Assembly: GCA_040081395.1 (NCBI GenBank)
Contig: JBEBGN010000004.1
Coordinates: forward strand, 446 to 64,445
Source of the DNA: Longimicrobiales bacterium
GTDB lineage: Bacteria; Gemmatimonadota; Gemmatimonadetes; Longimicrobiales; Gaopeijiaceae
DNA length: 64,000 bases
Reading direction: 5' to 3'
Positions within the stretch are counted from its first letter, which is position 1; each line of letters starts with the position of its first letter. The translations under genes and the position numbers were made by a program. Of this stretch, positions 7,040 through 50,078 are shown one piece after another. The notes under the pieces were generated by a model, which had not been told where the DNA came from, did not search any database, and saw only the letters and a list, made by a program, of their open reading frames with translations.

Positions 7040-7422
7040 TTGATGCGCACGGGGAACTTGCTGACGCCTGCCAGAGCGCGCAGGTCACCAAGGGCTTTGT
7101 CCTTTGCAGCGTCCGCGTCGCCGTGCATCAACTGGGTGAACCGCTTGGCGAGCGCGTCTGCGTCGGTCAGCGAGCGACCCTTCAGGAGCGTGGTCATCAT
7201 GCTGACGGCGGCCTGCGAGATCGAGCACCCGGAACCGACGAACTTCGCCTCGGCGATCCGGTCGTCCTCGATGCGCAACTGGAGTCGAATCTCGTCGCCG
7301 CAGACCGGATTGGCGAGGTGGACCTCGATCGTCTTCTCGGCCAGCTCTGCTTTGTTCCGAGGATTGCGATAGTGCTCGAGGATGATCTGCTGGTAGAGCG
7401 AGTTGAGCTGCGGAGTGTCCAT
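6970..7422 (-). CDS. sufU: SUF-type Fe-S cluster scaffold / sulfur acceptor SufU (IscU/NifU N-terminal family)
   Basis: LYQQIILEHYRNPRN, NPVCGDEI and GSGCSISQA conserved Cys motifs. Confidence 0.9.
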   Translation of the reverse strand: MDTPQLNSLYQQIILEHYRNPRNKAELAEKTIEVHLANPVCGDEIRLQLRIEDDRIAEAKFVGSGCSISQAAVSMMTTLLKGRSLTDADALAKRFTQLMHGDADAAKDKALGDLRALAGVSKFPVRIKCALLGFDALQQALQKHPAGDGH

Positions 7423-7585
7423 CGGCCGGTCCGTCTCGGGTTCGAGGTCGAAATCTAGGGTACCGCCCGGCAGGCGCTACGGTCCGCGTCCTGGGCGTCG
7501 GCTCCCCCGAGACTCGAGTCGGCTTTCCCGCGCGTTCCCCGCCCGCGACCTTTCACTTTACCCGACGACTCCAACTGCCCGCGTG

Positions 7586-9595
7586 ATGCACGCACCGCTC
7601 CTCGCCGACCTCGTCACACTGCTGGTCGTCTCGATCGGCGTGTTGTACGCATCGTACCGAGTGCGTCTGCCGCCGATCGTCGGGTTCCTGATTTCCGGCA
7701 TGCTACTCGGGCCGCACGGCTTCGTCCTCGTCGAGGGCGGGGAAGACGTCCAGCAGATCGCAGAGATCGGCGTCGTGCTGCTCCTGTTCACGATCGGTCT
7801 CGAGTTTTCGCTCGCGGACCTCATGCGCATGCGGCGCGCTGCGCTCGTCGGTGGGTCGGTTCAGATCGCCCTGGTGACGGGCGCGGTGTTCCTGACGCTG
7901 ATCCAGTTCGGGGTGCCGCCCAATGGTGCACTCTTTTTGGGCCTGACGACGTCACTGAGTTCGACTGCGGTCGTCCTGCGACTCCTGCAGCAGAGCGCCC
8001 AGATCGACGCGCCGCACGGGCGCATGAGCATGGCCATGCTCGTCTATCAGGACCTGATGATCGTCCCGATGATGTTGTTGATCCCAGTGCTCGCAGGTAC
8101 CTCGGGAGGGCTCGTCGGGGCGCTCGGCCGCTTCTTTGTGCAAGCCGTCGCGATCCTCACGGTCGTGACCCTGCTGGCCCGCTTCGTCGTGCCACAGTTG
8201 CTGGACCGCGTTGTGCACACGCGCAGTCGTGATCTCTTCCTGCTCACGATCCTGACCCTGTGCCTCTCGATCGCCTGGGTCGCGTCGCTCGCCGGACTGT
8301 CGCTCGCGCTCGGGGCCTTCCTCGCAGGGCTGCTCGTGTCCGAGTCGGAGTACAGCCATCAAGCGCTCGCGGACATCCTGCCCTTCCGCGACGTGTTCGC
8401 GAGTTTCTTCTTCATCAGCATCGGCATGCTGCTCGACCTGCAGCTTGCGGCCAGCCAGCCCATCCTGCTCGTGGCGCTCGTCCTCGGCGTGCTCCTGGTC
8501 AAGGTCTTGGCCGGAACCATCGCGGTGCTCGTGGTGGGTTCGCCGCTCCGCACAGCGGTCATCACCGGCATGGCGACGAGCCAGGTCGGGGAGTTCTCGT
8601 TCGTGCTCGCGGGTGCGGGCATCGCGGCCGGCCTGGTCAGCGACTCGAGTTACCAGTGGTTCGTCGCCACCACGGTCGCGACCATCGGCCTCACACCTTT
8701 CTTGGTCACGTCGGCACCCCGGCTCGCGAGCCTCCTGCACAGGCTCCCCCTTCCGCACCGCCTCCAGAGCCGGGGACGCGTGGCGGAATCGGAGCGCACA
8801 CCCAAACGGCTCGAGAACCACCTGGTGGTGATCGGATACGGGATCAACGGCCGGAACGTGAGTCGGGCCGCCACCGTCGCCGGCATCCCCTACGTGGCCG
8901 TGGACATGAACCCTGCCCTCGTGACGACCGAGCGCGCGCTCGGCGTCCCGGTGTTCTACGGCGACGCGACGCGCGAGGCGCTGCTCGAGCATCTCGGGGT
9001 ACCGCGCGCGCGGGCGGTGGTCGTCGCGCTCTCCGACGCGGCCGCCACGCGCCAAGTGACCTCCCTCGTCCGAGCGCTCAACCCCACCTGCTCGATCGTG
9101 GCGCGCACGCGGTATGTGCGCGAGGTCGAGGCACTGAAGGGCTTGGGCGCGGATACGGTCGTGCCCGAGGAGCTCGAGACCTCGGTCGAGATCGTCTCGC
9201 GGGTGCTCACCGGCTACCTCGTGCCGCGCGCCGAGATCGAGGCCTTCGTCTCCGAGATCAGGGCGGGCAACTACGAGATGTGGCGCTCGCCCGCCGCCGT
9301 GGCGCCGAGCCTGCATGACCTCAAACAGACGCTCACGGACGTCGAGATCACCACGTTGCGCGTCGATGCGGGCAGCACGCTTGCCGGCCAGCGCCTCGTG
9401 GACTCAGACCTGCGGCGCGTGTTCGGCGTGACGGTCGTCGCGATCCGTCGGGGCGAGCAGCTCATACCGAACCCGCGTGGCGACGAGCGCGTCGTCGAGG
9501 GCGACCTGCTCGTCGTGCTCGGTCTGGGCGAAGAGATCGCGGCGGCGGCCGGCCTGGCCGCCGGCCCACCGGTGGCAGCCGGGAAGACGGACTAG
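7586..9595 (+). CDS. Monovalent cation:proton antiporter-2 (CPA2, KefB/KefC-like) with RCK/TrkA-N and TrkA-C domains
   Basis: About 12 TM segments, then VVIGYGINGRNV (Rossmann TrkA-N) and a C-terminal TrkA-C-like segment (LRVDAGSTLAGQRL...VVAIRRGEQ). Start set to the ATG at 7586 (MHAPLLADL...). Confidence 0.9.
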   Translation: MHAPLLADLVTLLVVSIGVLYASYRVRLPPIVGFLISGMLLGPHGFVLVEGGEDVQQIAEIGVVLLLFTIGLEFSLADLMRMRRAALVGGSVQIALVTGAVFLTLIQFGVPPNGALFLGLTTSLSSTAVVLRLLQQSAQIDAPHGRMSMAMLVYQDLMIVPMMLLIPVLAGTSGGLVGALGRFFVQAVAILTVVTLLARFVVPQLLDRVVHTRSRDLFLLTILTLCLSIAWVASLAGLSLALGAFLAGLLVSESEYSHQALADILPFRDVFASFFFISIGMLLDLQLAASQPILLVALVLGVLLVKVLAGTIAVLVVGSPLRTAVITGMATSQVGEFSFVLAGAGIAAGLVSDSSYQWFVATTVATIGLTPFLVTSAPRLASLLHRLPLPHRLQSRGRVAESERTPKRLENHLVVIGYGINGRNVSRAATVAGIPYVAVDMNPALVTTERALGVPVFYGDATREALLEHLGVPRARAVVVALSDAAATRQVTSLVRALNPTCSIVARTRYVREVEALKGLGADTVVPEELETSVEIVSRVLTGYLVPRAEIEAFVSEIRAGNYEMWRSPAAVAPSLHDLKQTLTDVEITTLRVDAGSTLAGQRLVDSDLRRVFGVTVVAIRRGEQLIPNPRGDERVVEGDLLVVLGLGEEIAAAAGLAAGPPVAAGKTD

Positions 9596-10821
9596 CCGAA
9601 GATCCCGGCCACCACTGCCAGGCCCTCGACCAGCCGGTCGACGTCCTCTTCGGTGTTGTACAGGTAGAACGAGGCGCGGGCAGTGGCCGCGATGCCGTAG
9701 CGCTTCATCACGAGCTGTGCGCAATGGTGTCCCGCACGGATCGCGATGCCCTCGGCGTCCAGGATCGTCGAGATGTCGTGTGGGTGGGCATCGCCCAGCG
9801 TGAACGACACGACGGCGGAGTGCTCATCGAGCGAGTCAGGGCCGTAGATGCGGATGCCGTCGATCGCCCGGACCTTGTCGAGCGCGTACTTCATGAGCTT
9901 TCGCTCGTGCGCCTCGATCGACTCCATGCCGATCTCGGACAGGAAGTCGACCGCGGCGCCGAGTCCGATCGCGCCGGCGATATTCGGCGTGCCCGCCTCG
10001 AACTTGTGCGGCAACTCGGCCCAGGTGCTCTCGTCCCGGTGCACGAAGTGGATCATCTCGCCGCCCCCCTGATAGGGGGACATGGCTTCGAGTAGGTCCC
10101 GGCGACCCCAGAGCGCCCCGCTGCCGGTCGGGCCGCACATCTTGTGACCGGAGAGGGCGTAGAAGTCCACGCCGAGGTCCTGCACGTCAACCTTGGTGTG
10201 CACCGCGCCCTGTGCGCCATCCACCACGACCAGCGCTCCGACGCGGCGCGCCGCGGCCGCGATGCGCTTCACCGGGTTCACGGTGCCCAGCGCGTTCGAC
10301 ACATGCGAGATCGCGACGATCTTGGTGCGGTCAGTAAGCAGCGAGTCGAGGTCATCGAGAATCAGCCGCCCCTGATCGTCGATCTCGATGTAGCGGAGCT
10401 TCGCGCCGGTGCGACGGGCGAGTAGCTGCCACGGCACGATGTTCGAGTGGTGTTCGAGCACCGAGAGGAGGATCTCGTCCCCCTGCTTCACGTTGTCGAG
10501 TCCCCATGCGGACGCGACGAGGTTGATCGAGCCGGTGGTGCCGCTGGTCCAGATCAACTCGGCGGGGTCGCTCGCTCCGATCCAGCGCGCGACCTTGCCG
10601 CGCGCCTCCTCGAATGCCTCGGTGGCGCGGCGTGACAGCTCGTGGATGCCGCGGTGCACGTTGGCGTTGTCGTGCTCGTAGTACGCGTCCAACGCGTGCA
10701 GCACGTGCTTCGGTTTCTGCGAGGTAGCTGCGCTGTCCAGATAGATGAGCGGCTTCCCGTTCACCTTCTGGTCGAGCGCCGGAAACTCGGCTCGGATGCG
10801 CTTCGGGTCGAAGACGGCCAT
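9592..10821 (-). CDS. sufS: Cysteine desulfurase SufS (class V aminotransferase, group II)
   Basis: IYLDSAATSQKP, SGHKMCGPTG (PLP lysine), RAGHHCAQ (catalytic Cys loop). Confidence 0.95.
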   Translation of the reverse strand: MAVFDPKRIRAEFPALDQKVNGKPLIYLDSAATSQKPKHVLHALDAYYEHDNANVHRGIHELSRRATEAFEEARGKVARWIGASDPAELIWTSGTTGSINLVASAWGLDNVKQGDEILLSVLEHHSNIVPWQLLARRTGAKLRYIEIDDQGRLILDDLDSLLTDRTKIVAISHVSNALGTVNPVKRIAAAARRVGALVVVDGAQGAVHTKVDVQDLGVDFYALSGHKMCGPTGSGALWGRRDLLEAMSPYQGGGEMIHFVHRDESTWAELPHKFEAGTPNIAGAIGLGAAVDFLSEIGMESIEAHERKLMKYALDKVRAIDGIRIYGPDSLDEHSAVVSFTLGDAHPHDISTILDAEGIAIRAGHHCAQLVMKRYGIAATARASFYLYNTEEDVDRLVEGLAVVAGIFG

Positions 10822-10824
10822 GAC

Positions 10825-11136
10825 TCAGTCCACGTCCACGAAGATGTCCCCGTCGCGCACTTCCACGGGATAGGACCGCACGGGGAGCACGGCCGGTAGT
10901 GTCTTGCGTGCTCCCGAGCACGCGTCGAAGCGCGCGCCGTGGTACGCACACACGACCTGATCGCCGTCGAGCTCACCGTCCGAGAGCGGGTACTCCTCGT
11001 GCGAGCAGCGGTCCACCAGCGCGCAGATCCGCCCGTCGACGTTGGCGAGCACGATCGCCGTGCCCTTCGCGTCGACCCCCTTCAGCGCGCCGACGGGGCA
11101 GTCAGCCACGCGGGCCACGCGAACCCAGTCAGCCAT
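10825..11136 (-). CDS. Rieske [2Fe-2S] ferredoxin-like protein embedded in the suf operon
   Basis: CSHEE...CAYHGARF (CxH...CxxH Rieske ligands). Start set to the ATG at 11136 (MADWVRV...); ends 3 nt before the sufS start. Confidence 0.85.
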   Translation of the reverse strand: MADWVRVARVADCPVGALKGVDAKGTAIVLANVDGRICALVDRCSHEEYPLSDGELDGDQVVCAYHGARFDACSGARKTLPAVLPVRSYPVEVRDGDIFVDVD

Positions 11137-11180
11137 GCGTGGTCGCGCGCCCGGAAGGTGCTGTTCTGCCCGCGCGAAAG

Positions 11181-11322
11181 GCGCACGGGGTACGCTTCTC
11201 GAAGGGGACATCGGCGCGGGGACCTGGTCGGCCCCGCGCCGCTAAGCGAGGCGTCGCATGCGGGAGCGTACCCACCAGGTAGCCGCCCGAGCGGTCCCCG
11301 GAGAGGAGCGTACCCCGTGCGC
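11181..11322. repeat. Single copy of a ~140-nt palindromic intergenic element (same family as 49771-50078)
   Basis: Terminal inverted repeat gcgcacggggtacgct (11181-11196) / agcgtaccccgtgcgc (11307-11322). Inner hairpin ggcgcgggg-N10-ccccgcgcc followed by gctaagcga; collinear with the 49.8-50.1 kb units. Confidence 0.65.
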
Positions 11323-11330
11323 CGAACCCC

Positions 11331-12680
11331 TCACGCGTGCTGCGCAAGCTTCTCCTCGATGACCCGCGTGACTTTATCGGCCACACCCCCCAGCGGGAGC
11401 TTCGACAACACCTCCCCCAGGAACCCGAGTACGACCAGCCGCTCGGCCGTCGTCCGGTCGAGTCCGCGCGACATCAGGTAGAACTTCGCCTCCTCGTCGA
11501 GCTCTCCCACGGTGGCGCCGTGTGAGCACTTCACGTCGTCCGCCTGGATCTCGAGGTTCGGCAGCGAATCGGCGTGCGCCTTGGGAGAAAGGAGCAGGTT
11601 GCGGTTCTTCTGATATGCGTCCGTCTTCTGCGCGCCGGGAAGTACGCGGATGATCCCGCGAAACACCGCGCGGCTCGAACCGTCTAGGGCGCCTTTGTAG
11701 AGCAGGTCGCTCGAGGTGTTCGGCGTGGTGTGGTCCTGGCTGGTGTTGAAGTCGAAGTGCTGATCGCCATCGCCGAAATAGAGTCCGAGCATGTCCGAGT
11801 TGGCGCCGGGCCCGAGCAGTCGCGCGTTCAGGTCGACGCGGCTCACCGAGGCTCCGAGGCCGACGTTCAGCGTATCGAGCGTCGCGTCGCGCCCAGCCAG
11901 GGTGCGCTGCACCGACTGATAGAACGCGCCCTTGCCGAGCCGCTGGACCGCCACGTACTGCACCTGCGCGCCGTCCCGTGCGATCACCTCGACGGCGCTC
12001 GACGTGAACGTCTGCGAAGCGAAGTCGTCGGAGAGGATCTCGTCGACGTAGGAGACCTGGCTCACGCGTTCCGCGACGATCAACACGCGACTGAAGTATG
12101 CCGCACCCGCCTCGGAGAGCCATCGTGTGACGCGCACCGGGAGATCCAGTCGGACGCCACGCGGCACGTGCAGGAACACGCCGTCAGCCCAGAGGGCGGC
12201 GTTCAGTGCCGCCAGCTTACCATCCTCGGCAGGCACGGTGACGGCGAGGTGCTCGCGCAGGAGAGTCTCGTGCGTCTGCACCGCCTGGTGCAGCGAGCTG
12301 AGCACGACCCCCTTCTTGACCAGCGACGGGTCGAGGTCCGCGTGCACGACGTGGCCGTCGATGAGTACGACGTGGCCCGACGCTTCGTGGTCCTCGTCCA
12401 TCGCCGCGCGCAGCCGCTTCGGCCACTTCTTCGGGTCGTCGGGCACGGGCCGGCTCTTCGCGAGTCTCAGGGACTCCCAAGCGAGCTTCTTCTTCAGGTC
12501 GGTGTAGCGCCACTCCTCGAGCCGCGTGGTCGGGAGCGGTGTCTGCTCGTACACGGACCAGGCCTGCATCCGTCGCTCGGCGAGCCACGAGGGCTCACCC
12601 TTGGAGAGGCGTTTCGCGGCGTCGGCATTGAATGCCGGCGTCACGCCTTCCGGAGCCAGCGTCGACGGCGCGTTAACCAA
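11331..12680 (-). CDS. sufD: Fe-S cluster assembly protein SufD
   Basis: C-terminal SufBD beta-helix signature ([36 protein letters not shown]). 8-nt overlap with the sufB stop. Confidence 0.9.
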
Positions 12681-34337: not shown

Positions 34338-36100
34338 TGGAGAACCTCGACGTCGCCCGCGAGCTCACCCTGCTCGCCGACTTGCTGGAAATCCAAGGCG
34401 CGAACCCCTTCCGCATCCGCGCCTATCGGAACGCGGTCAACACCATCGAGGGACTCTCTCGTCCGTTGTACGAGATGGTCGCGGCGGGCGAAGATCTCAC
34501 GGAGCTGCCGGCCATCGGGGACAACGTGGCTGCCCACGTCGTCGAGCTGCTCCAGACGGGCTCGATCGGCCGTCTGCGCGAGGTCGAGGCCGAATTCCCG
34601 CGCTCGCTCGTCGAACTCATGGCGCTGGATGGTCTAGGCCCCAAGAAGGCGCGTAAGCTATTCGAGGACTTGGGCGTGCGAACCATCGACGACCTGGCTG
34701 CGGCTCTGGACACAGGGAAGGTCGAGGTGTTGGAGGGCTTCGGCGCGAAGAGCGTATCGAAGCTGCGCAACTCGATCGAGGCCCACAGGAAGCGCACGGG
34801 CCGCCCGCGCCTGGACGAGGCCGAACTGCTCATCGCCGGGCTGCTCGAGCACATGAAGCGTGCGCCCGGTGCCAAGCGGCTCGAGGTCGCTGGAAGCTTG
34901 CGTCGACGGCGCGAGACCATCGGCGACGTCGACCTCCTTGTGCAGGCCGAGGGGGACGGCACGCCCATCGTCGAGCACTTCACGTCCTTCGAGGGTGCGG
35001 CCCGCGCCGAGGCAGCCGGGCCCACGAAGGGGAGCGTCGTCCTGACGTCAGGCCTCCAGGTCGACCTCAGGGTGGTCCCCAAGAGGTCGTTCGGTGCCGC
35101 GCTCGTGTACTTCACCGGATCGAAGGACCACAACGTGGCTATCCGCACCCGCGCCGTGCGCGATGGGCTCCGGGTCAACGAGTGGGGTGTCTACCAGGTG
35201 CCCGAGGACGTCGACCCCACGACGCTCGGCCCGACCGACGGGAAGCGGCTCGCAGGGGACACCGAGGAGTCGGTCTACGAGGCCTTGGGCCTGGCCTGGA
35301 TCCCTCCAGAACTGCGGGAGAATCGGGGGGAGGTCGAGGCTGCAGCAAAGGACACGCTGCCCCGACTCATCGAGCTCGGCGACCTGCGCGGCGACCTCCA
35401 GATGCACTCCACCTGGAGTGACGGGAAGGCATCCATCGAGACCATGGCGCGTGCGTGCGCGACCCGTGGCTACGAGTATCTTGCGATCACCGACCACAGC
35501 GGTGCGATGGCCATGCTCGAAGGGCTCGACGCGAAGCGCGCGCGCAAGCAGTGGCAGGAGATCGAGCAGGTGCGCGAGAAGGTGCCCGAGATCGAGATCC
35601 TCCGGAGCGCCGAGGTCGACATTCTCAAGGATGGCACGCTGGACCTGCCGGACGACGTGCTCGAGGAGCTGGACCTCGTGTTGGTGTCCATCCATTCCTT
35701 CTTCGATCTGGACAAGAAGAGAATGACCGACCGAGTGCTCAAGGCGATGAGCCATCCCGCGGTGGACATACTCGCGCACCCGACGGGCCGTCAGATCAAC
35801 CGACGCGACCCCATCGCCCTCGACGTCGAGGCCGTGCTCGAGGCCGCCGCGGAACTGTCCGTCGCGGTCGAGATCAACGCCAATCCTCGGCGGCTGGACC
35901 TCAACGAGGCGCACGCGCACCGCGCCAAGGAACTCGGCGTGCCCCTCGTGATCAGCACGGACGCGCATTCGCCATCGGGACTCGACGATATGCGCTTTGG
36001 CGTCGATCAGGCCCGTCGCGCCTGGCTCGAGTCGAAAGACGTGCTGAACACCCGGACCGCGAAGCAGCTGCGGAAGTGGTTGCAGAGGAAGCCGACATGA
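34337..36100 (+). CDS. polX: Family X DNA polymerase with a C-terminal PHP domain (PolX)
   Basis: N-terminal HhH/8-kDa-like (NPFRIRAYRNA), GSLRRRRETIGDVDLLV palm motif, PHP metal ligands (LQMHSTWSDG, ITDHS, HP, STDAH). The GTG overlaps the ligA TAG by 1 nt. Confidence 0.9.
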   Translation: MENLDVARELTLLADLLEIQGANPFRIRAYRNAVNTIEGLSRPLYEMVAAGEDLTELPAIGDNVAAHVVELLQTGSIGRLREVEAEFPRSLVELMALDGLGPKKARKLFEDLGVRTIDDLAAALDTGKVEVLEGFGAKSVSKLRNSIEAHRKRTGRPRLDEAELLIAGLLEHMKRAPGAKRLEVAGSLRRRRETIGDVDLLVQAEGDGTPIVEHFTSFEGAARAEAAGPTKGSVVLTSGLQVDLRVVPKRSFGAALVYFTGSKDHNVAIRTRAVRDGLRVNEWGVYQVPEDVDPTTLGPTDGKRLAGDTEESVYEALGLAWIPPELRENRGEVEAAAKDTLPRLIELGDLRGDLQMHSTWSDGKASIETMARACATRGYEYLAITDHSGAMAMLEGLDAKRARKQWQEIEQVREKVPEIEILRSAEVDILKDGTLDLPDDVLEELDLVLVSIHSFFDLDKKRMTDRVLKAMSHPAVDILAHPTGRQINRRDPIALDVEAVLEAAAELSVAVEINANPRRLDLNEAHAHRAKELGVPLVISTDAHSPSGLDDMRFGVDQARRAWLESKDVLNTRTAKQLRKWLQRKPT

Positions 36101-37242
36101 GACAGGAGGCCCACAGGCTGTACGAAGCGATCGACCGGTGGGAACGCTCGGGCCTGATCGACGCCGACACCGCGTCCCGACTGCGCGTCGACGTGAGTCA
36201 CGAAGCGAGCGCCGGTACGCTGCGGCTATCCCGGTACCTGTTGGCGGTGACCGGAGGGGTGGTCCTCCTCATCGCTGGGGGTGTCTTCCTGGATTGGGCG
36301 TGGCCCCTGATCGGTGACGGAGCCCGCGCCCTCGTCCTGGCGGCTGCGGGCGCGGTCGTGGTGACGGTCGGCGTCGCACTGGAAGAGCGCACGGAGCGAT
36401 GGAGGCCGGCCGCATATCTCATGCAGACGGCGGGTCTGGGGCTGCTCTTCTCGGCCTTCGTTTACTCGCGCCGGGCATGGGCGGACCTCAGCCTGGGTGG
36501 GGTCCTGGTAGGTGTGTTGTCCCTCGTCGTGCCGATCGTGCTGGCACCACGCGCGATGAGGCGCAATCGCGTCATGCCTGCGGTGCATCTCGCGTTCGGC
36601 CTGGCCTTCCTCGCGGTCTTCCTGGAGCGCGCTACCCCGCTCTCCGAGGATGCCATCATCTGGGTGCTCGACGCCGTACTCCTGGCCACGCTGCTGATGC
36701 TCTCCCGCGCGCTATCGAGCGAGGGGGGTGTCGAGCGCCACCCCTGGATGGTCAACGCACTCGTGACCGCGATGGGCTCGGGTTTCCTGTTGGTCACCTG
36801 GACCGGGCTCGGCCCGCTCGACCTCTCGGAAGATGCCATCTGGCCACTCGACCTCTGGCTGGCGCTGACGGTCGGGCTCGGGGTCTGGGGCATCGAGCGA
36901 GGCCCACCCAGCCTCTCCCGCGAGTGGCTCGGCGACCTACTCGCCTGGCTCCTCGTCGCCTGGATCGCGTTGGGATTCTACACCTCGCTGGAGGCGCTCG
37001 ACGGGCCGCCCGAGCTTCCGCTCCTTTTGGTGGGCGGCGCGGGCGTCGCGGCCTTCGTATACGCGAACGGCCGCGGACTGCGCTCCCTCATGGGCGCGGC
37101 GACCCTCGCGTTCGTGGCCCCGCTCTGGTACTGGGCGGTGGACCGCGGTGGTGCACTGGGTGCCGTTGCGGCCCTAGTCGCCACCGCGGGCATCCTGTTC
37201 TGGGTGTCGGGACGCATCGGGAAGCGACCCGCGGCGGGGTAG
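36097..37242 (+). CDS. DUF2157-like polytopic membrane protein
   Basis: N-terminal soluble helix (LYEAIDRWERSGLIDADTASRL) followed by ~10 hydrophobic segments. The ATG overlaps the polX TGA (ATGA at 36097-36100). Confidence 0.6.
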   Translation: MRQEAHRLYEAIDRWERSGLIDADTASRLRVDVSHEASAGTLRLSRYLLAVTGGVVLLIAGGVFLDWAWPLIGDGARALVLAAAGAVVVTVGVALEERTERWRPAAYLMQTAGLGLLFSAFVYSRRAWADLSLGGVLVGVLSLVVPIVLAPRAMRRNRVMPAVHLAFGLAFLAVFLERATPLSEDAIIWVLDAVLLATLLMLSRALSSEGGVERHPWMVNALVTAMGSGFLLVTWTGLGPLDLSEDAIWPLDLWLALTVGLGVWGIERGPPSLSREWLGDLLAWLLVAWIALGFYTSLEALDGPPELPLLLVGGAGVAAFVYANGRGLRSLMGAATLAFVAPLWYWAVDRGGALGAVAALVATAGILFWVSGRIGKRPAAG

Positions 37243-41376: not shown

Positions 41377-41449
41377 GCCCTCATCGTCTAGTGGCCTAGG
41401 ATAACGCCCTCTCACGGCGTAGACCGGGGTTCGAGTCCCCGTGGGGGTA
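41377..41449 (+). tRNA. tRNA-Glu (anticodon CUC)
   Basis: Hand-folded cloverleaf: acceptor gccctca/tgggggt (2 G-U pairs), anticodon stem acgcc/ggcgt with loop ctCTCac, T arm cgggg-ttcgagt-ccccg. No encoded CCA. Confidence 0.9.
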
Positions 41450-41471: not shown

Positions 41472-41543
41472 GGTCGCTTAGCTCAGCGGTAGAGCACCAC
41501 GCTCACATCGTGGGGGTCGCAGGTTCAAATCCTGCAGCGACCA
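41472..41543 (+). tRNA. tRNA-Val (anticodon CAC)
   Basis: Acceptor ggtcgct/agcgacc, D arm gctc-agcggta-gagc, anticodon stem ccacg/cgtgg with loop ctCACat, T arm gcagg-ttcaaat-cctgc. Confidence 0.9.
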
Positions 41544-49703: not shown

Positions 49704-49739
49704 GAGGCCCGGGGCGAAAGCCCCGGGCCTCTTGCTTTC
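49704..49739 (+). terminator. Rho-independent terminator of susD
   Basis: gaggcccgggg-cgaaag-ccccgggcctc (11-bp perfect stem, GAAA-type loop) followed by ttgctttc. Confidence 0.7.
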
Positions 49740-49770
49740 GGGGTCTGGGGCTCAAGCGTTGGTCGGAGTG

Positions 49771-50078
49771 GTGACAGGTCCGCGAAGCGGGGCGGTGAGG
49801 GTACCTCCCTCGGAGGGGACATCGGCGCCGGGCCCCGGATGACCCGGCGCCGCTTAGCGACGCGGCGCCTAGGTCAGAGGTGCAGAAGCGGTCGCCAGCC
49901 CGAGCGGTCCGTGACAGGCCCGCGAAGCGGGGGCGGTGAGGGTACCTCCCTCGGAGGGGACATCGGCGCCGGGGCTCGGACGACCCGGCGCCGCTAAGCG
50001 ACGCGGCGCGCGGGATGAGGGGCTGAAGCGTTCGCCAGCGGAGCGGTCCCCAAAGAGGGAGGTACCCTCACCGCCCCC
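49771..50078. repeat. Tandem array (2 full ~140-nt units plus a flanking partial unit) of a palindromic intergenic element, closed by a 24-nt perfect inverted repeat
   Basis: Units at 49771-49910 and 49911-50049. 49929-49952 (gggggcggtgagggtacctccctc) is the exact reverse complement of 50055-50078. Each unit carries ggcgccggg-N10-cccggcgcc followed by gct[t/a]agcgacgcggcgc. Confidence 0.75.

What the first reader, a model, noticed from the sequence alone, without database searches (positions are those of the whole stretch)
49771..50078. Tandem array of a ~140-nt palindromic element between the convergent susD and TPR genes, closed by a 24-nt perfect inverted repeat
Seen in the sequence:
- Two head-to-tail units (49771-49910 and 49911-50049) are nearly identical over their first ~100 nt, with a few substitutions and one 1-nt indel. 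Their last ~40 nt are more diverged.
- A partial unit precedes them (ggggctcaagcgttggtcggagtg, about 49747-49770).
- After unit 2 the sequence turns back on itself: 50055-50078 is the exact reverse complement of 49929-49952. This predicts a 24-bp stem enclosing ~100 nt.
- Each unit also carries a 9-bp GC hairpin (ggcgccggg-N10-cccggcgcc) followed by the conserved gct[t/a]agcgacgcggcgc.
- The array starts ~30 nt after a canonical susD terminator, so it is not needed for termination.
- A third, single copy lies inside the suf operon (11181-11322; see that finding). Its hairpin and outer stem differ in sequence but keep base pairing.

Inference: this is a REP/BIME- or MITE-like structured element family, or a structured sRNA / 3'-UTR element, that has been duplicated locally.
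Basis: seen in the sequence. Interest (0 to 1): 0.62.

Follow-up and report, generated by a model that had tools for sequence, protein, structure and literature searches.

The report
Structured repeat element family in Gemmatimonadota
The repeat downstream of susD is a locally duplicated copy of a previously undescribed ~150-nt element of Gemmatimonadota that folds into a long hairpin capped by a conserved three-way junction; its fold is clearly kept by selection, but what it does is still unknown.

Summary
A 141-nt period is repeated 2.2 times (units 88% identical) and closed by an exact 24-nt inverted repeat; a third copy lies in the suf operon.

It belongs to a family found only in Gemmatimonadota: 16 distinct full copies in 15 loci. 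Rfam 15, the papers searched, plasmids, phages and E. coli genomes hold nothing like it.

Each copy has a 22-25-bp outer stem of variable sequence, a purine-rich 3x3 loop, an invariant GGGGAC/GUCCCC helix, and a three-way junction (P2 hairpin, CUAA, P3 with tandem G.A). Covariation is strong: 96% of cells paired, 31 of 42 pairs changed on both sides. G.U outnumbers A.C 17:4 on one strand, so that strand folds.

It is not a MITE or REP. The arms vary while the centre is conserved, there are no target-site duplications, copy number is low, and paralogues are only about 70% alike by eye.

The suf copy is old, vertically inherited, often lost (2 of 8 unbiased loci filled) and inverted once in place.

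Best reading: a selected structured RNA module rearranged through its own palindromic arms. No transcript or promoter was found, so a folded-ssDNA site remains a serious rival.

The parts
49739..49770 (+). Partial unit: remnant of the 3' part of a core (P3 3' side and GAGYGG)
   Evidence: Local alignment to the tail of unit B, CGGGATGAGGGGCTGAAGCGTTCGCCAGCGGAG
49771..49788 (+). Linker 1 (GTGACAGGTCCGCGAAGC). CCGCGAAGCGG forms a mini-hairpin that overlaps the start of the next arm
   Evidence: repeated at 49911-49928 (D3)
49789..49910 (+). Unit A, truncated. It has the 5' arm (49789-49811), GGA loop, P1 5' strand (49815-49820), P2 hairpin (49823-49852), CTTAGCGA, a P3-like region, and ends GAGCGGTCC. 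It lacks the last CC of P1 and the whole 3' arm
   Evidence: Model R1 partial hit 49817-49910, 60 bits, model positions 30-124; alignment
49911..49928 (+). Linker 2 (GTGACAGGCCCGCGAAGC)
49929..50078 (+). Unit B, complete. 5' arm 49929-49952; loop GGA 49953-49955; P1 49956-49961 with 50046-50051; P2 49964-49993 (loop 49974-49983); CTAA 49994-49997; P3 49998-50044 (GC-GA...GA-GC base); loop AAA 50052-50054; 3' arm 50055-50078
   Evidence: Model R1 132.8 bits, E 4e-27; MFE -121.7 kcal/mol with this architecture; exact 24-nt reverse complement
11180..11323 (+). Single complete copy C between sufD (11331-12680, minus strand) and the Rieske gene (10825-11136, minus strand), antisense to the operon. 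5' arm 11180-11200; GAA; P1 11204-11209 with 11294-11299; P2 11212-11241; CTAA 11242-11245; P3 11246-11292; GGA; 3' arm 11303-11323
   Evidence: Model R1 136.8 bits

Best explanation
SHOWN. The region is a cluster of copies of a ~150-nt structured element family so far seen only in Gemmatimonadota.

Each complete element has:
- a 22-25-bp closing stem whose sequence differs between copies but stays paired;
- a purine-rich 3x3 internal loop;
- a GGGGAC/GUCCCC helix that is near-invariant (one broken pair, in L016);
- a three-way junction with a 10-bp hairpin (P2, 10-nt loop with conserved GG.CG.), the linker CUAA, and a second arm (P3) that opens with GC-GA...GA-GC (tandem G.A) and has a variable tip.

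The fold is maintained on one strand, the '+' sense as written in the window.

The window array is a recent tandem duplication (2.2 x 141 nt) of one element. Only the last unit kept its 3' arm, so two 5' arms compete for a single 3' arm.

The family is low-copy and old. At the sufD-Rieske junction it has been inherited vertically, lost repeatedly, and inverted once in place. Neighbouring partial copies are common. The element's own long palindromic arms offer a likely cause for these rearrangements (inferred).

INFERRED. The element most likely acts as a folded RNA module, with the conserved junction and loops serving as a binding surface for a protein or another RNA. It would be made as part of read-through or antisense transcripts across gene ends, not from its own promoter. 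It is not an active transposon.
For: - Family: 5 genome loci, all Gemmatimonadota MAGs; 9 metagenome loci; 2 more found purely by synteny.
- Structure: the same fold is predicted independently for every copy. On 16 copies, 96.3% of cells pair against 72% shuffled and 41-48% slid; 31/42 pairs change on both sides; 0/500 shuffles reach this. P2 has 7/10 covarying pairs, with no break and no G.U.
- Independent check: copies not selected by my pattern (L016, L018) keep the fold. L016 has a compensatory G-C to U-A change in a pair that was otherwise invariant.
- Strand: 17 G.U against 4 A.C in the outer stems. Two of the four A.C are in the inverted copy. The internal loops and the tandem G.A are purine-rich only on that strand.
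- Selection in place: orthologous suf copies keep the core, while by eye the spacers beside them are too different to align.
- Age: paralogues B and C are about 70% alike by eye, whereas orthologues winC and L003 look about 90% alike.
- Loss and inversion: empty 8-9-nt junctions occur in L015, L017, L022, and the genes overlap in L020. Remnant-like spacers occur in L019 and L021. L008/L011 flanks are 85-88% identical in the same orientation, but the core is 82% identical only when flipped.
- Not described: Rfam 15 has no match at gathering score, nor a credible one at E<=10. The literature searches found nothing.
Against: - No RNA evidence. Five riverine metatranscriptomes detect susC/susD of this or a very close organism at word depth about 2-8, but show depth 0 over the array and over the suf copy. 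These are assembled contigs, and structured RNAs of 150 nt are easily lost.
- No sigma-70-type promoter or U-tract terminator flanks either window copy.
- Eight suf copies with resolved flanking genes are antisense to the operon, and L007 looks the same from its flank. The TPR gene also reads the array in the opposite sense. The obvious neighbouring mRNAs therefore carry the '-' sense, not the selected '+' sense.
- The element is dispensable: only 2 of 8 unbiased suf loci carry it.
- G.T wobble is also tolerated in folded single-stranded DNA, so the strand asymmetry does not separate RNA from ssDNA.
- Template-switch 'quasipalindrome correction' can keep DNA arms complementary without selection on a fold.
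- The pattern-based scans pre-selected the most conserved core blocks, which inflates the apparent invariance.
Confidence: 0.5

Rival explanations
1. It is a non-autonomous mobile or recombination element recognised as folded single-stranded DNA, in the way IS200/IS605 ends, REP sequences (by RAYT) or integron attC sites are. The '+' strand hairpin and junction would form on exposed ssDNA, for example the lagging-strand template, and be bound by a trans-acting HUH transposase or recombinase encoded elsewhere.
For: - Copies have sharply defined ends and sit at unrelated intergenic sites. All four fully resolved non-suf sites lie between convergent genes, the classic safe haven.
- The insertion splits an otherwise tight 8-9-nt operon junction.
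- Presence and absence are patchy among close relatives.
- Nested and partial copies are frequent.
- The strand asymmetry is compatible with G.T wobble in ssDNA.
- No promoter and no transcript were found.
- All three window cores lie on the same strand.
Against: - There is no target-site duplication and no conserved terminal sequence.
- Copy number is low. The strict scan of 185,579 species genomes gave at most one match per genome, and about 170 kb of unbiased flanks held no extra copy.
- Paralogues are old (about 70% alike by eye), so there has been no recent burst.
- Orthologous copies keep the core while the flanks have diverged, which immobile selfish copies should not do.
- Element similarity tracks the SufD clades, indicating vertical descent.
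- No transposase lies next to any copy.
- It is absent from plasmids, phages and viral contigs.
- The GC-skew test of replication strand was inconclusive.
Confidence: 0.22
2. It is a passive hairpin acting on neighbouring transcripts: a bidirectional factor-independent terminator, a 3'-end protector against exonucleases, or an RNase III processing site. Only the long stem matters, and the core is conserved through shared ancestry alone.
For: - The stem is very stable (complete copies fold at -92 to -118 kcal/mol) and forms in either orientation.
- Copies lie 8-20 nt past stop codons between convergent genes: the TPR stop is 16 nt from the array, the L004 fumarase stop 8 nt, and the L005 FtsX stop 15 nt.
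- The TPR gene has no other terminator.
- The inverted L011 copy persists.
Against: - Unpaired junction and loop nucleotides are conserved across lineages whose flanks no longer align, which a plain hairpin does not need.
- P2 and the base of P3 covary.
- The G.U against A.C asymmetry favours the strand that the suf and TPR mRNAs do not carry.
- A terminator in the middle of the suf operon would be harmful.
- No U tract follows the stem.
Confidence: 0.15
3. It is functionless palindromic DNA. The arms stay complementary through intramolecular template switching (quasipalindrome correction) and drift apart between lineages, so the apparent covariation is mutational and not selected.
For: - Several outer stems are perfect over all 22 pairs counted (L001, L004, winB), and stem spans reach 25-28 bp.
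- Symmetrical partial duplications occur on both sides in L012 and L002.
- The element is frequently lost.
Against: - It does not explain the near-invariant unpaired nucleotides.
- It does not explain the conserved non-Watson-Crick G.A pairs and purine loops, which correction should erase.
- It does not explain the 17:4 strand asymmetry of wobble pairs.
- It does not explain retention of the core over divergence that has erased similarity in the flanks.
Confidence: 0.06
4. It is a new self-cleaving ribozyme or rolling-circle-derived unit. Head-to-tail arrays with partial end units, and a three-way junction with CUAAGCGA...GAGCG strands, are loosely reminiscent of the hammerhead core.
For: - The head-to-tail array has partial terminal units.
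- The three-way junction has a conserved purine-rich core next to a tandem G.A.
Against: - No ribozyme model in Rfam matches, even at E<=10.
- From my own knowledge of the hammerhead core: the junction strands differ from it in length and at positions I recall as essential (G5, A14).
- Most loci hold single copies.
Confidence: 0.03

Closest known systems
ERIC / IRU elements of Enterobacteria (about 127-bp imperfect palindromes in intergenic regions)
   Same: - Similar size.
- Long imperfect palindrome.
- Found in operon spacers and at gene ends, in either orientation.
- Low to moderate copy number, with some copies at orthologous sites.
- Internal insertions and partial copies occur.
- From my own knowledge: compensatory changes that suggest an RNA-level fold have been reported for ERIC.
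   Different: - No sequence similarity: blastn against 5,426 E. coli genomes found nothing.
- Different phylum.
- Here a conserved three-way-junction core is capped by arms whose sequence varies freely. ERIC, as I recall, is conserved along its whole length.
REP/BIME elements with RAYT transposases
   Same: - GC-rich extragenic palindromes.
- Enriched between convergent genes and inside operons.
- Strand-specific single-stranded fold.
- Form local clusters.
   Different: - REP units are 20-40 nt simple hairpins with a conserved 5' tetranucleotide, present in tens to hundreds of copies (my own knowledge).
- This element is about 150 nt, branched and low-copy.
- No RAYT gene was seen near any copy.
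MITEs (for example Correia/NEMIS, RUP, Nezha)
   Same: - 100-200 nt.
- Terminal inverted repeats.
- Intergenic and co-transcribed.
- Can fold as long hairpins.
   Different: - MITE terminal repeats are conserved because the transposase reads them. Here they are the most variable part.
- No target-site duplication.
- Paralogues are old, not near-identical.
Orphan structured ncRNA motifs found by comparative genomics (Weinberg/Breaker-type candidates in Rfam)
   Same: - Phylum-restricted.
- Strong covariation.
- Conserved junction nucleotides.
- No known function.
   Different: - It matches none of the 4,227 Rfam 15 models.
- It is unusual for the very long closing stem, for frequent partial and nested copies, and for lying antisense to the operon that hosts its best-conserved site.

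Membership tests
REP/BIME | Unit is a 20-40-nt imperfect palindrome (simple hairpin) | tested here: not met
   The unit is about 150 nt with a three-way junction
REP/BIME | Tens to hundreds of copies per genome | tested here: not met
   There are 3 cores in 64 kb. The strict two-block pattern, which both window paralogues match, hit at most once per genome among 185,579 species genomes. About 170 kb of unbiased flanks held no extra copy. Caveat: MAGs lose repeats
REP/BIME | Cognate RAYT (Y1 HUH transposase) gene flanked by REPs | not testable with these tools
None appears among the neighbours listed
MITE | Terminal inverted repeats conserved in sequence among copies | tested here: not met
   All 22 outer-stem pairs vary between copies, while the centre is conserved
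MITE | Target-site duplication flanking each copy | tested here: not met
   No flanking direct repeat of 4 nt or more in 14 copies. Three of the 14 (L005, L006, L011) had poorly defined stem ends
MITE | Near-identical copies within a genome, indicating recent transposition | tested here: not met
   Window copies B and C are about 70% alike by eye, with a different P2 stem and a different P3. Only the tandem units A and B are similar (88%)
MITE | Parent insertion sequence with the same ends | not testable with these tools
   No whole-genome access. None was seen in the window or the loci
ERIC/IRU | Sequence homology to the enterobacterial consensus | tested here: not met
   blastn (word size 11) against all complete E. 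coli genomes gave no match
Any Rfam 15 family (including hammerhead, twister, Y RNA, 6S, 5S, retron-type ncRNAs) | Score at or above the family gathering threshold | tested here: not met
   Gathering search: only two tRNAs elsewhere in the window. Permissive searches of both loci: the best hits are the susD terminator and a generic long-hairpin miRNA model at 17.8 of 268 bits
Integron attC site | R''/R' core sites (RYYYAAC...GTTRRRY) at the ends, variable centre, arrays of cassettes beside intI | tested here: not met
   By inspection the arms lack these motifs, and the centre, not the ends, is conserved. No integrase is among the neighbours
Retron msr-msd ncRNA | Reverse transcriptase gene immediately downstream | tested here: not met
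   Neighbours are SufD/Rieske, SusD/TPR, FtsX permeases, HsdR and fumarase
Intrinsic terminator | GC-rich hairpin followed directly by a U tract | tested here: not met
   Only the separate susD terminator at 49704-49731 qualifies; none is found at the element ends
Independent sRNA gene | Own promoter, defined 3' end, detectable transcript | tested here: inconclusive
   No sigma-70-like promoter, though the promoter consensus of this phylum is unknown to me. Depth is 0 in five metatranscriptomes held only as contigs

The most novel reading that the evidence does not exclude
The element is the RNA (or folded-ssDNA) component of an undescribed, Gemmatimonadota-specific ribonucleoprotein or recombination system. 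The near-invariant three-way junction would be read by a dedicated protein encoded elsewhere in the genome. Genomes would then carry or lack the whole system together. This might explain why the sample that yielded L019, whose suf site holds only a remnant, also yielded L024, which has no element downstream of susD. It is not shown that L019 and L024 come from one genome.
Probability: 0.2. Interest if true: 0.7.

Novelty: new member of a known kind. Interest (0 to 1): 0.5.

Why it matters
Gemmatimonadota are abundant in soils and fresh waters but have almost no described non-coding elements.

This family has unusually clean covariation: 31 of 42 pairs covary, and the P2 hairpin changes repeatedly without a single broken pair. 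Its architecture is distinctive. That makes it a ready candidate for an Rfam entry and for structure probing.

It is also a caution for annotation and analysis:
- Gene callers extend the Rieske ORF into it.
- Its long arms drive tandem duplication, nesting, deletion and inversion inside an essential Fe-S operon.
- A 'MITE-like' look can hide a conserved-core, variable-arm organisation, the opposite of a transposon.

If a partner protein exists, the element would mark a new RNP or recombination system.

Tried and rejected
- **Known RNA families.** Rfam at gathering score and at E<=10 on both loci gave nothing credible.
- **Insertion of a core into pre-existing hairpins,** as an explanation for the variable arms. 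Rejected: arms of paralogues and orthologues share residual similarity (for example GGGTAC...CTC in winB and winC), and they change by wobble intermediates at the orthologous site.
- **Hammerhead-like core, Y-RNA-like GGUCC...GAAGG, 5S-like GCGCCGAUG.** All were compared by eye and are unsupported by any model hit.
- **Kissing interaction between the P2 loop and the P3 tip.** A perfect 6-7-nt complement exists in winC (ACCUGGU/ACCAGGU) and L004 (CCGGAC/GUCCGG). L001 and L003 carry one mismatch, and other subfamilies show no complement. Left open.
- **Small ORF or translational coupling.** The ATG inside the element is in frame with the Rieske gene in the window, and probably in L018, where the gene caller starts the ORF inside the element. 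It is out of frame in L006 and absent in L016. Rejected.
- **Replication-strand test by GC skew.** The signs differ between suf and non-suf loci and are confounded by coding bias. Inconclusive.
- **Mobility links.** Plasmids, phages and viral contigs gave none. Two loose-pattern viral matches are chance, with no model hit.
- **Transcript evidence.** All 4 run searches and 3 read-laying runs gave no coverage of either locus.
- **Orthologous susD junction.** L024 has no element, and the other contigs end inside the susD terminator.
- **Weak model hit in L016 (6036-6138)** and the **17-nt inverted repeat at 35999-36165.** Both are unremarkable.

Full report
**1. The observation**

- Units 49771-49910 and 49911-50049 are 88% identical: 93/100 over the first 100 aligned columns with a single 1-nt indel, and 31/41 over the rest.
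- A partial unit precedes them. It aligns to the tail of unit B from about 49739, slightly earlier than stated.
- 50055-50078 is the exact reverse complement of 49929-49952, and the pairing extends to 25 bp.
- The susD terminator (49704-49731) is a separate canonical hairpin with a T tail.
- The element arms are the three longest spaced inverted repeats in the 64-kb window.
- The array folds with z = -5.3 against shuffles.
- Tandem Repeats Finder did not list the array.

**2. It is a family**

Three cores match in the window, all on the + strand.
- A two-block pattern scan of one genome per species returned five loci. All are Gemmatimonadota MAGs, with one match each.
- A looser three-block scan of metagenomes returned nine more loci, two of them duplicates.
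- The same pattern found nothing in viral contigs.
- A covariance model built from 13 full copies found no further copy in the window or the loci. It did score unit A as a truncated copy.

**3. Architecture and covariation**

Every copy folds independently into the same shape:
- an outer stem of 22-25 bp;
- a purine-rich 3x3 internal loop (GNA opposite GRA);
- the helix GGGGAC/GUCCCC;
- a three-way junction formed by AU, a 10-bp hairpin P2 with a 10-nt loop, CUAA, and P3, which opens GC-GA...GA-GC and has a variable tip.

| Measure (16 copies) | Observed | Control |
|---|---|---|
| Cells forming a standard pair | 96.3% | 72% shuffled; 41-48% with partners slid by 1-3 columns |
| Pairs changed on both sides | 31 of 42 | about 20 shuffled |
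| Shuffles reaching any observed measure | 0 of 500 | - |

P2 has seven covarying pairs with no broken cell.

Two copies found by synteny alone, not by my pattern, keep the fold. L016 even changes a pair that was otherwise invariant, from G-C to U-A.

**4. Which strand folds**

In the outer stems, G.U outnumbers A.C by 17 to 4 when read in the element's own sense. This count excludes three copies whose bulges misregister.
- Two of the four A.C belong to the one copy that is inverted relative to its neighbours.
- The tandem G.A and the purine loops also exist only on this strand.
- The window's GC skew is only +0.014, too small for a mutational explanation.
- The transcription-linked C-to-T bias I would expect from general knowledge points the other way.

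A single-stranded '+'-sense molecule is therefore under selection. The data cannot say whether it is RNA or DNA.

**5. Context**
- **suf site.** Eight copies with resolved flanking genes lie between sufD and a Rieske-protein gene, antisense to the operon (window, L001, L003, L006, L008, L010, L016, L018). L007, truncated at a contig end, shows the same upstream flank.
- **Inverted copy.** One copy, L011, is in sense. L011 and L008 have flanks 85-88% identical in the same orientation. Their inner cores are 82% identical only when one is flipped. This is an inversion in place, as recombination between the two arms would produce.
- **Other sites.** The four other fully resolved sites lie between convergent, unrelated genes: SusD/TPR, FtsX-permease/HsdR, fumarase/small ORF, and small ORF/FtsX-permease. 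L012 lies downstream of a DUF2911 gene, with its far side unresolved. Several copies sit 8-20 nt from a stop codon.

**6. Evolution**

SufD orthologues were used to fetch eight suf loci without reference to the element.

| State of the sufD-Rieske junction | Loci |
|---|---|
| Filled with the element | L016, L018 |
| Tight 8-9-nt junction | L015, L017, L022 |
| Genes overlap | L020 |
| Short remnant-like spacer | L019 (50 nt), L021 (33 nt) |

- L019's SufD is the nearest neighbour of filled L003 in a crude tree. Its spacer keeps the right flank and what looks like one degenerate arm.
- By eye, element subtypes follow the SufD clades.
- Orthologues winC and L003 look about 90% alike, whereas window paralogues B and C are about 70% alike (by eye).
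- By eye, the spacers flanking orthologous copies no longer align, yet the core does.

I read this as an old insertion inherited vertically, kept under constraint where present, and lost repeatedly.

Partial 5' or 3' duplicates and nested copies occur in L001, L002, L003, L012 and the window array.

**7. What it is not**
- No target-site duplications.
- No conserved termini.
- No recent burst of copies.
- No neighbouring transposase, reverse transcriptase or integrase.
- No match in plasmids, phages, viral contigs or E. coli genomes.
- No Rfam family and nothing in the literature searches.

The REP/BIME and MITE labels therefore fail on tested features.

**8. How it may work**

The conserved unpaired nucleotides and non-Watson-Crick motifs argue for a specific three-dimensional fold that a partner reads. 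I favour an RNA module, with confidence of about 0.5 for the whole statement.

The weaknesses are real:
- There is no promoter, terminator or transcript. Five metatranscriptomes that detect susC/susD show nothing over either locus.
- In both window loci the neighbouring mRNAs would carry the non-selected sense.
- A '+' RNA at suf would have to come from antisense read-through. One possible source is the convergent transporter gene, whose end overlaps sufS (9592-9595).

The main rival, at 0.22, is a site recognised as folded single-stranded DNA by a trans-acting recombinase. A passive hairpin, neutral palindrome homogenisation and a ribozyme are less likely.

**9. The array itself**

The array is a recent local tandem duplication of linker + 5' arm + core. 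Only the last unit retains a 3' arm, which can pair with either 5' arm (I1 and I2).
- The relative with sequence downstream of susD (L024) has no element there.
- One metagenome holds a variant in which two units are separated by 39 extra letters. The same run has contigs that share the core but continue into other flanks.

The site is therefore young and variable.

**10. Verdict**

This is a real, previously undescribed structured element family with excellent comparative support and no known function. It is a new family within the known class of bacterial structured intergenic elements and orphan ncRNA motifs. Interest 0.5.

Noticed in passing
window 11136-11211: The reverse complement of the conserved GGGGACATC gives an ATG inside the element. 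In the window it is in frame with the Rieske ORF, so mechanical ORF calling gives 128 aa instead of 103. A gene caller made a similar extension in L018 (127 aa). The ATG is out of frame in L006 and absent in L016, so this is an annotation artefact and not a conserved ORF.
   Followed up: yes
window 9592-9595: The K+/cation transporter gene (7403-9595, + strand) and sufS (9592-10821, - strand) converge and overlap by 4 nt, with no room for a terminator. Read-through from the transporter gene would run antisense through sufS and the Rieske gene, and would transcribe the suf element in its selected '+' sense. L016 has a similar arrangement, with a convergent histidine-kinase gene overlapping sufS.
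   Followed up: partly
window 49769-50049, seen in run X2: One metagenome contig joins the end of a unit (50049) to the start of a unit (49769) through 39 unrelated letters. Other contigs share the core 49952-50001 but continue into different flanks. This suggests array variants and further core copies in related strains.
   Followed up: partly
L023, L025, L026 (contig ends 35-66 nt after the susD stop): Contigs carrying the closest SusD orthologues all end inside the susD terminator hairpin (GGGCCCGG...). Many SufD contigs are also barely longer than the gene. This may mean assembly breaks at hairpins or repeats, which would make MAG-based copy counts underestimates.
   Followed up: no
L001 about 7124-7180; L002 5181-5290 and 4950-5025; L012 about 1000-1041 and 1197-1240; L003 upstream of 4382: Partial extra 5' halves (arm + GGGGACATCGGCGCC) and extra 3' halves (GAGCGGTCCCC + arm) flank several full copies, sometimes symmetrically. 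This gives nested 'onion' arrangements. In every nested case the outer copy is interrupted just after the 5' strand of P2.
   Followed up: partly
window 49780-49790, 49920-49932, and 11166-11186: A small hairpin with a GAA(G/A) loop (CCGCGAAGCGG; GCGCGAAAGGCGC at the suf copy) overlaps the first bases of the 5' arm. It appears in the window copies and in L003, and would compete with the base of the outer stem. GCGAAGC is, as I recall, a very stable DNA mini-hairpin motif.
   Followed up: no
window 41377-41449 and 41472-41543: Two adjacent tRNA genes on the + strand. They are the only Rfam gathering-level hits in the window.
   Followed up: no
window 35999-36015 / 36149-36165: A perfect 17-nt inverted repeat with 133 nt between the arms, lying across a gene junction. 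The stretch 35990-36139 (5' arm and most of the spacer, not the 3' arm) folds no better than shuffles (z = +1.2).
   Followed up: yes
L019 and L024 (both from JGI sample 3300009873): The relative whose suf site holds only a remnant, and a SusD orthologue contig with no element downstream, come from the same sample. If they belong to one genome, that genome lacks the element at both sites, which would hint at genome-wide presence or absence.
   Followed up: no
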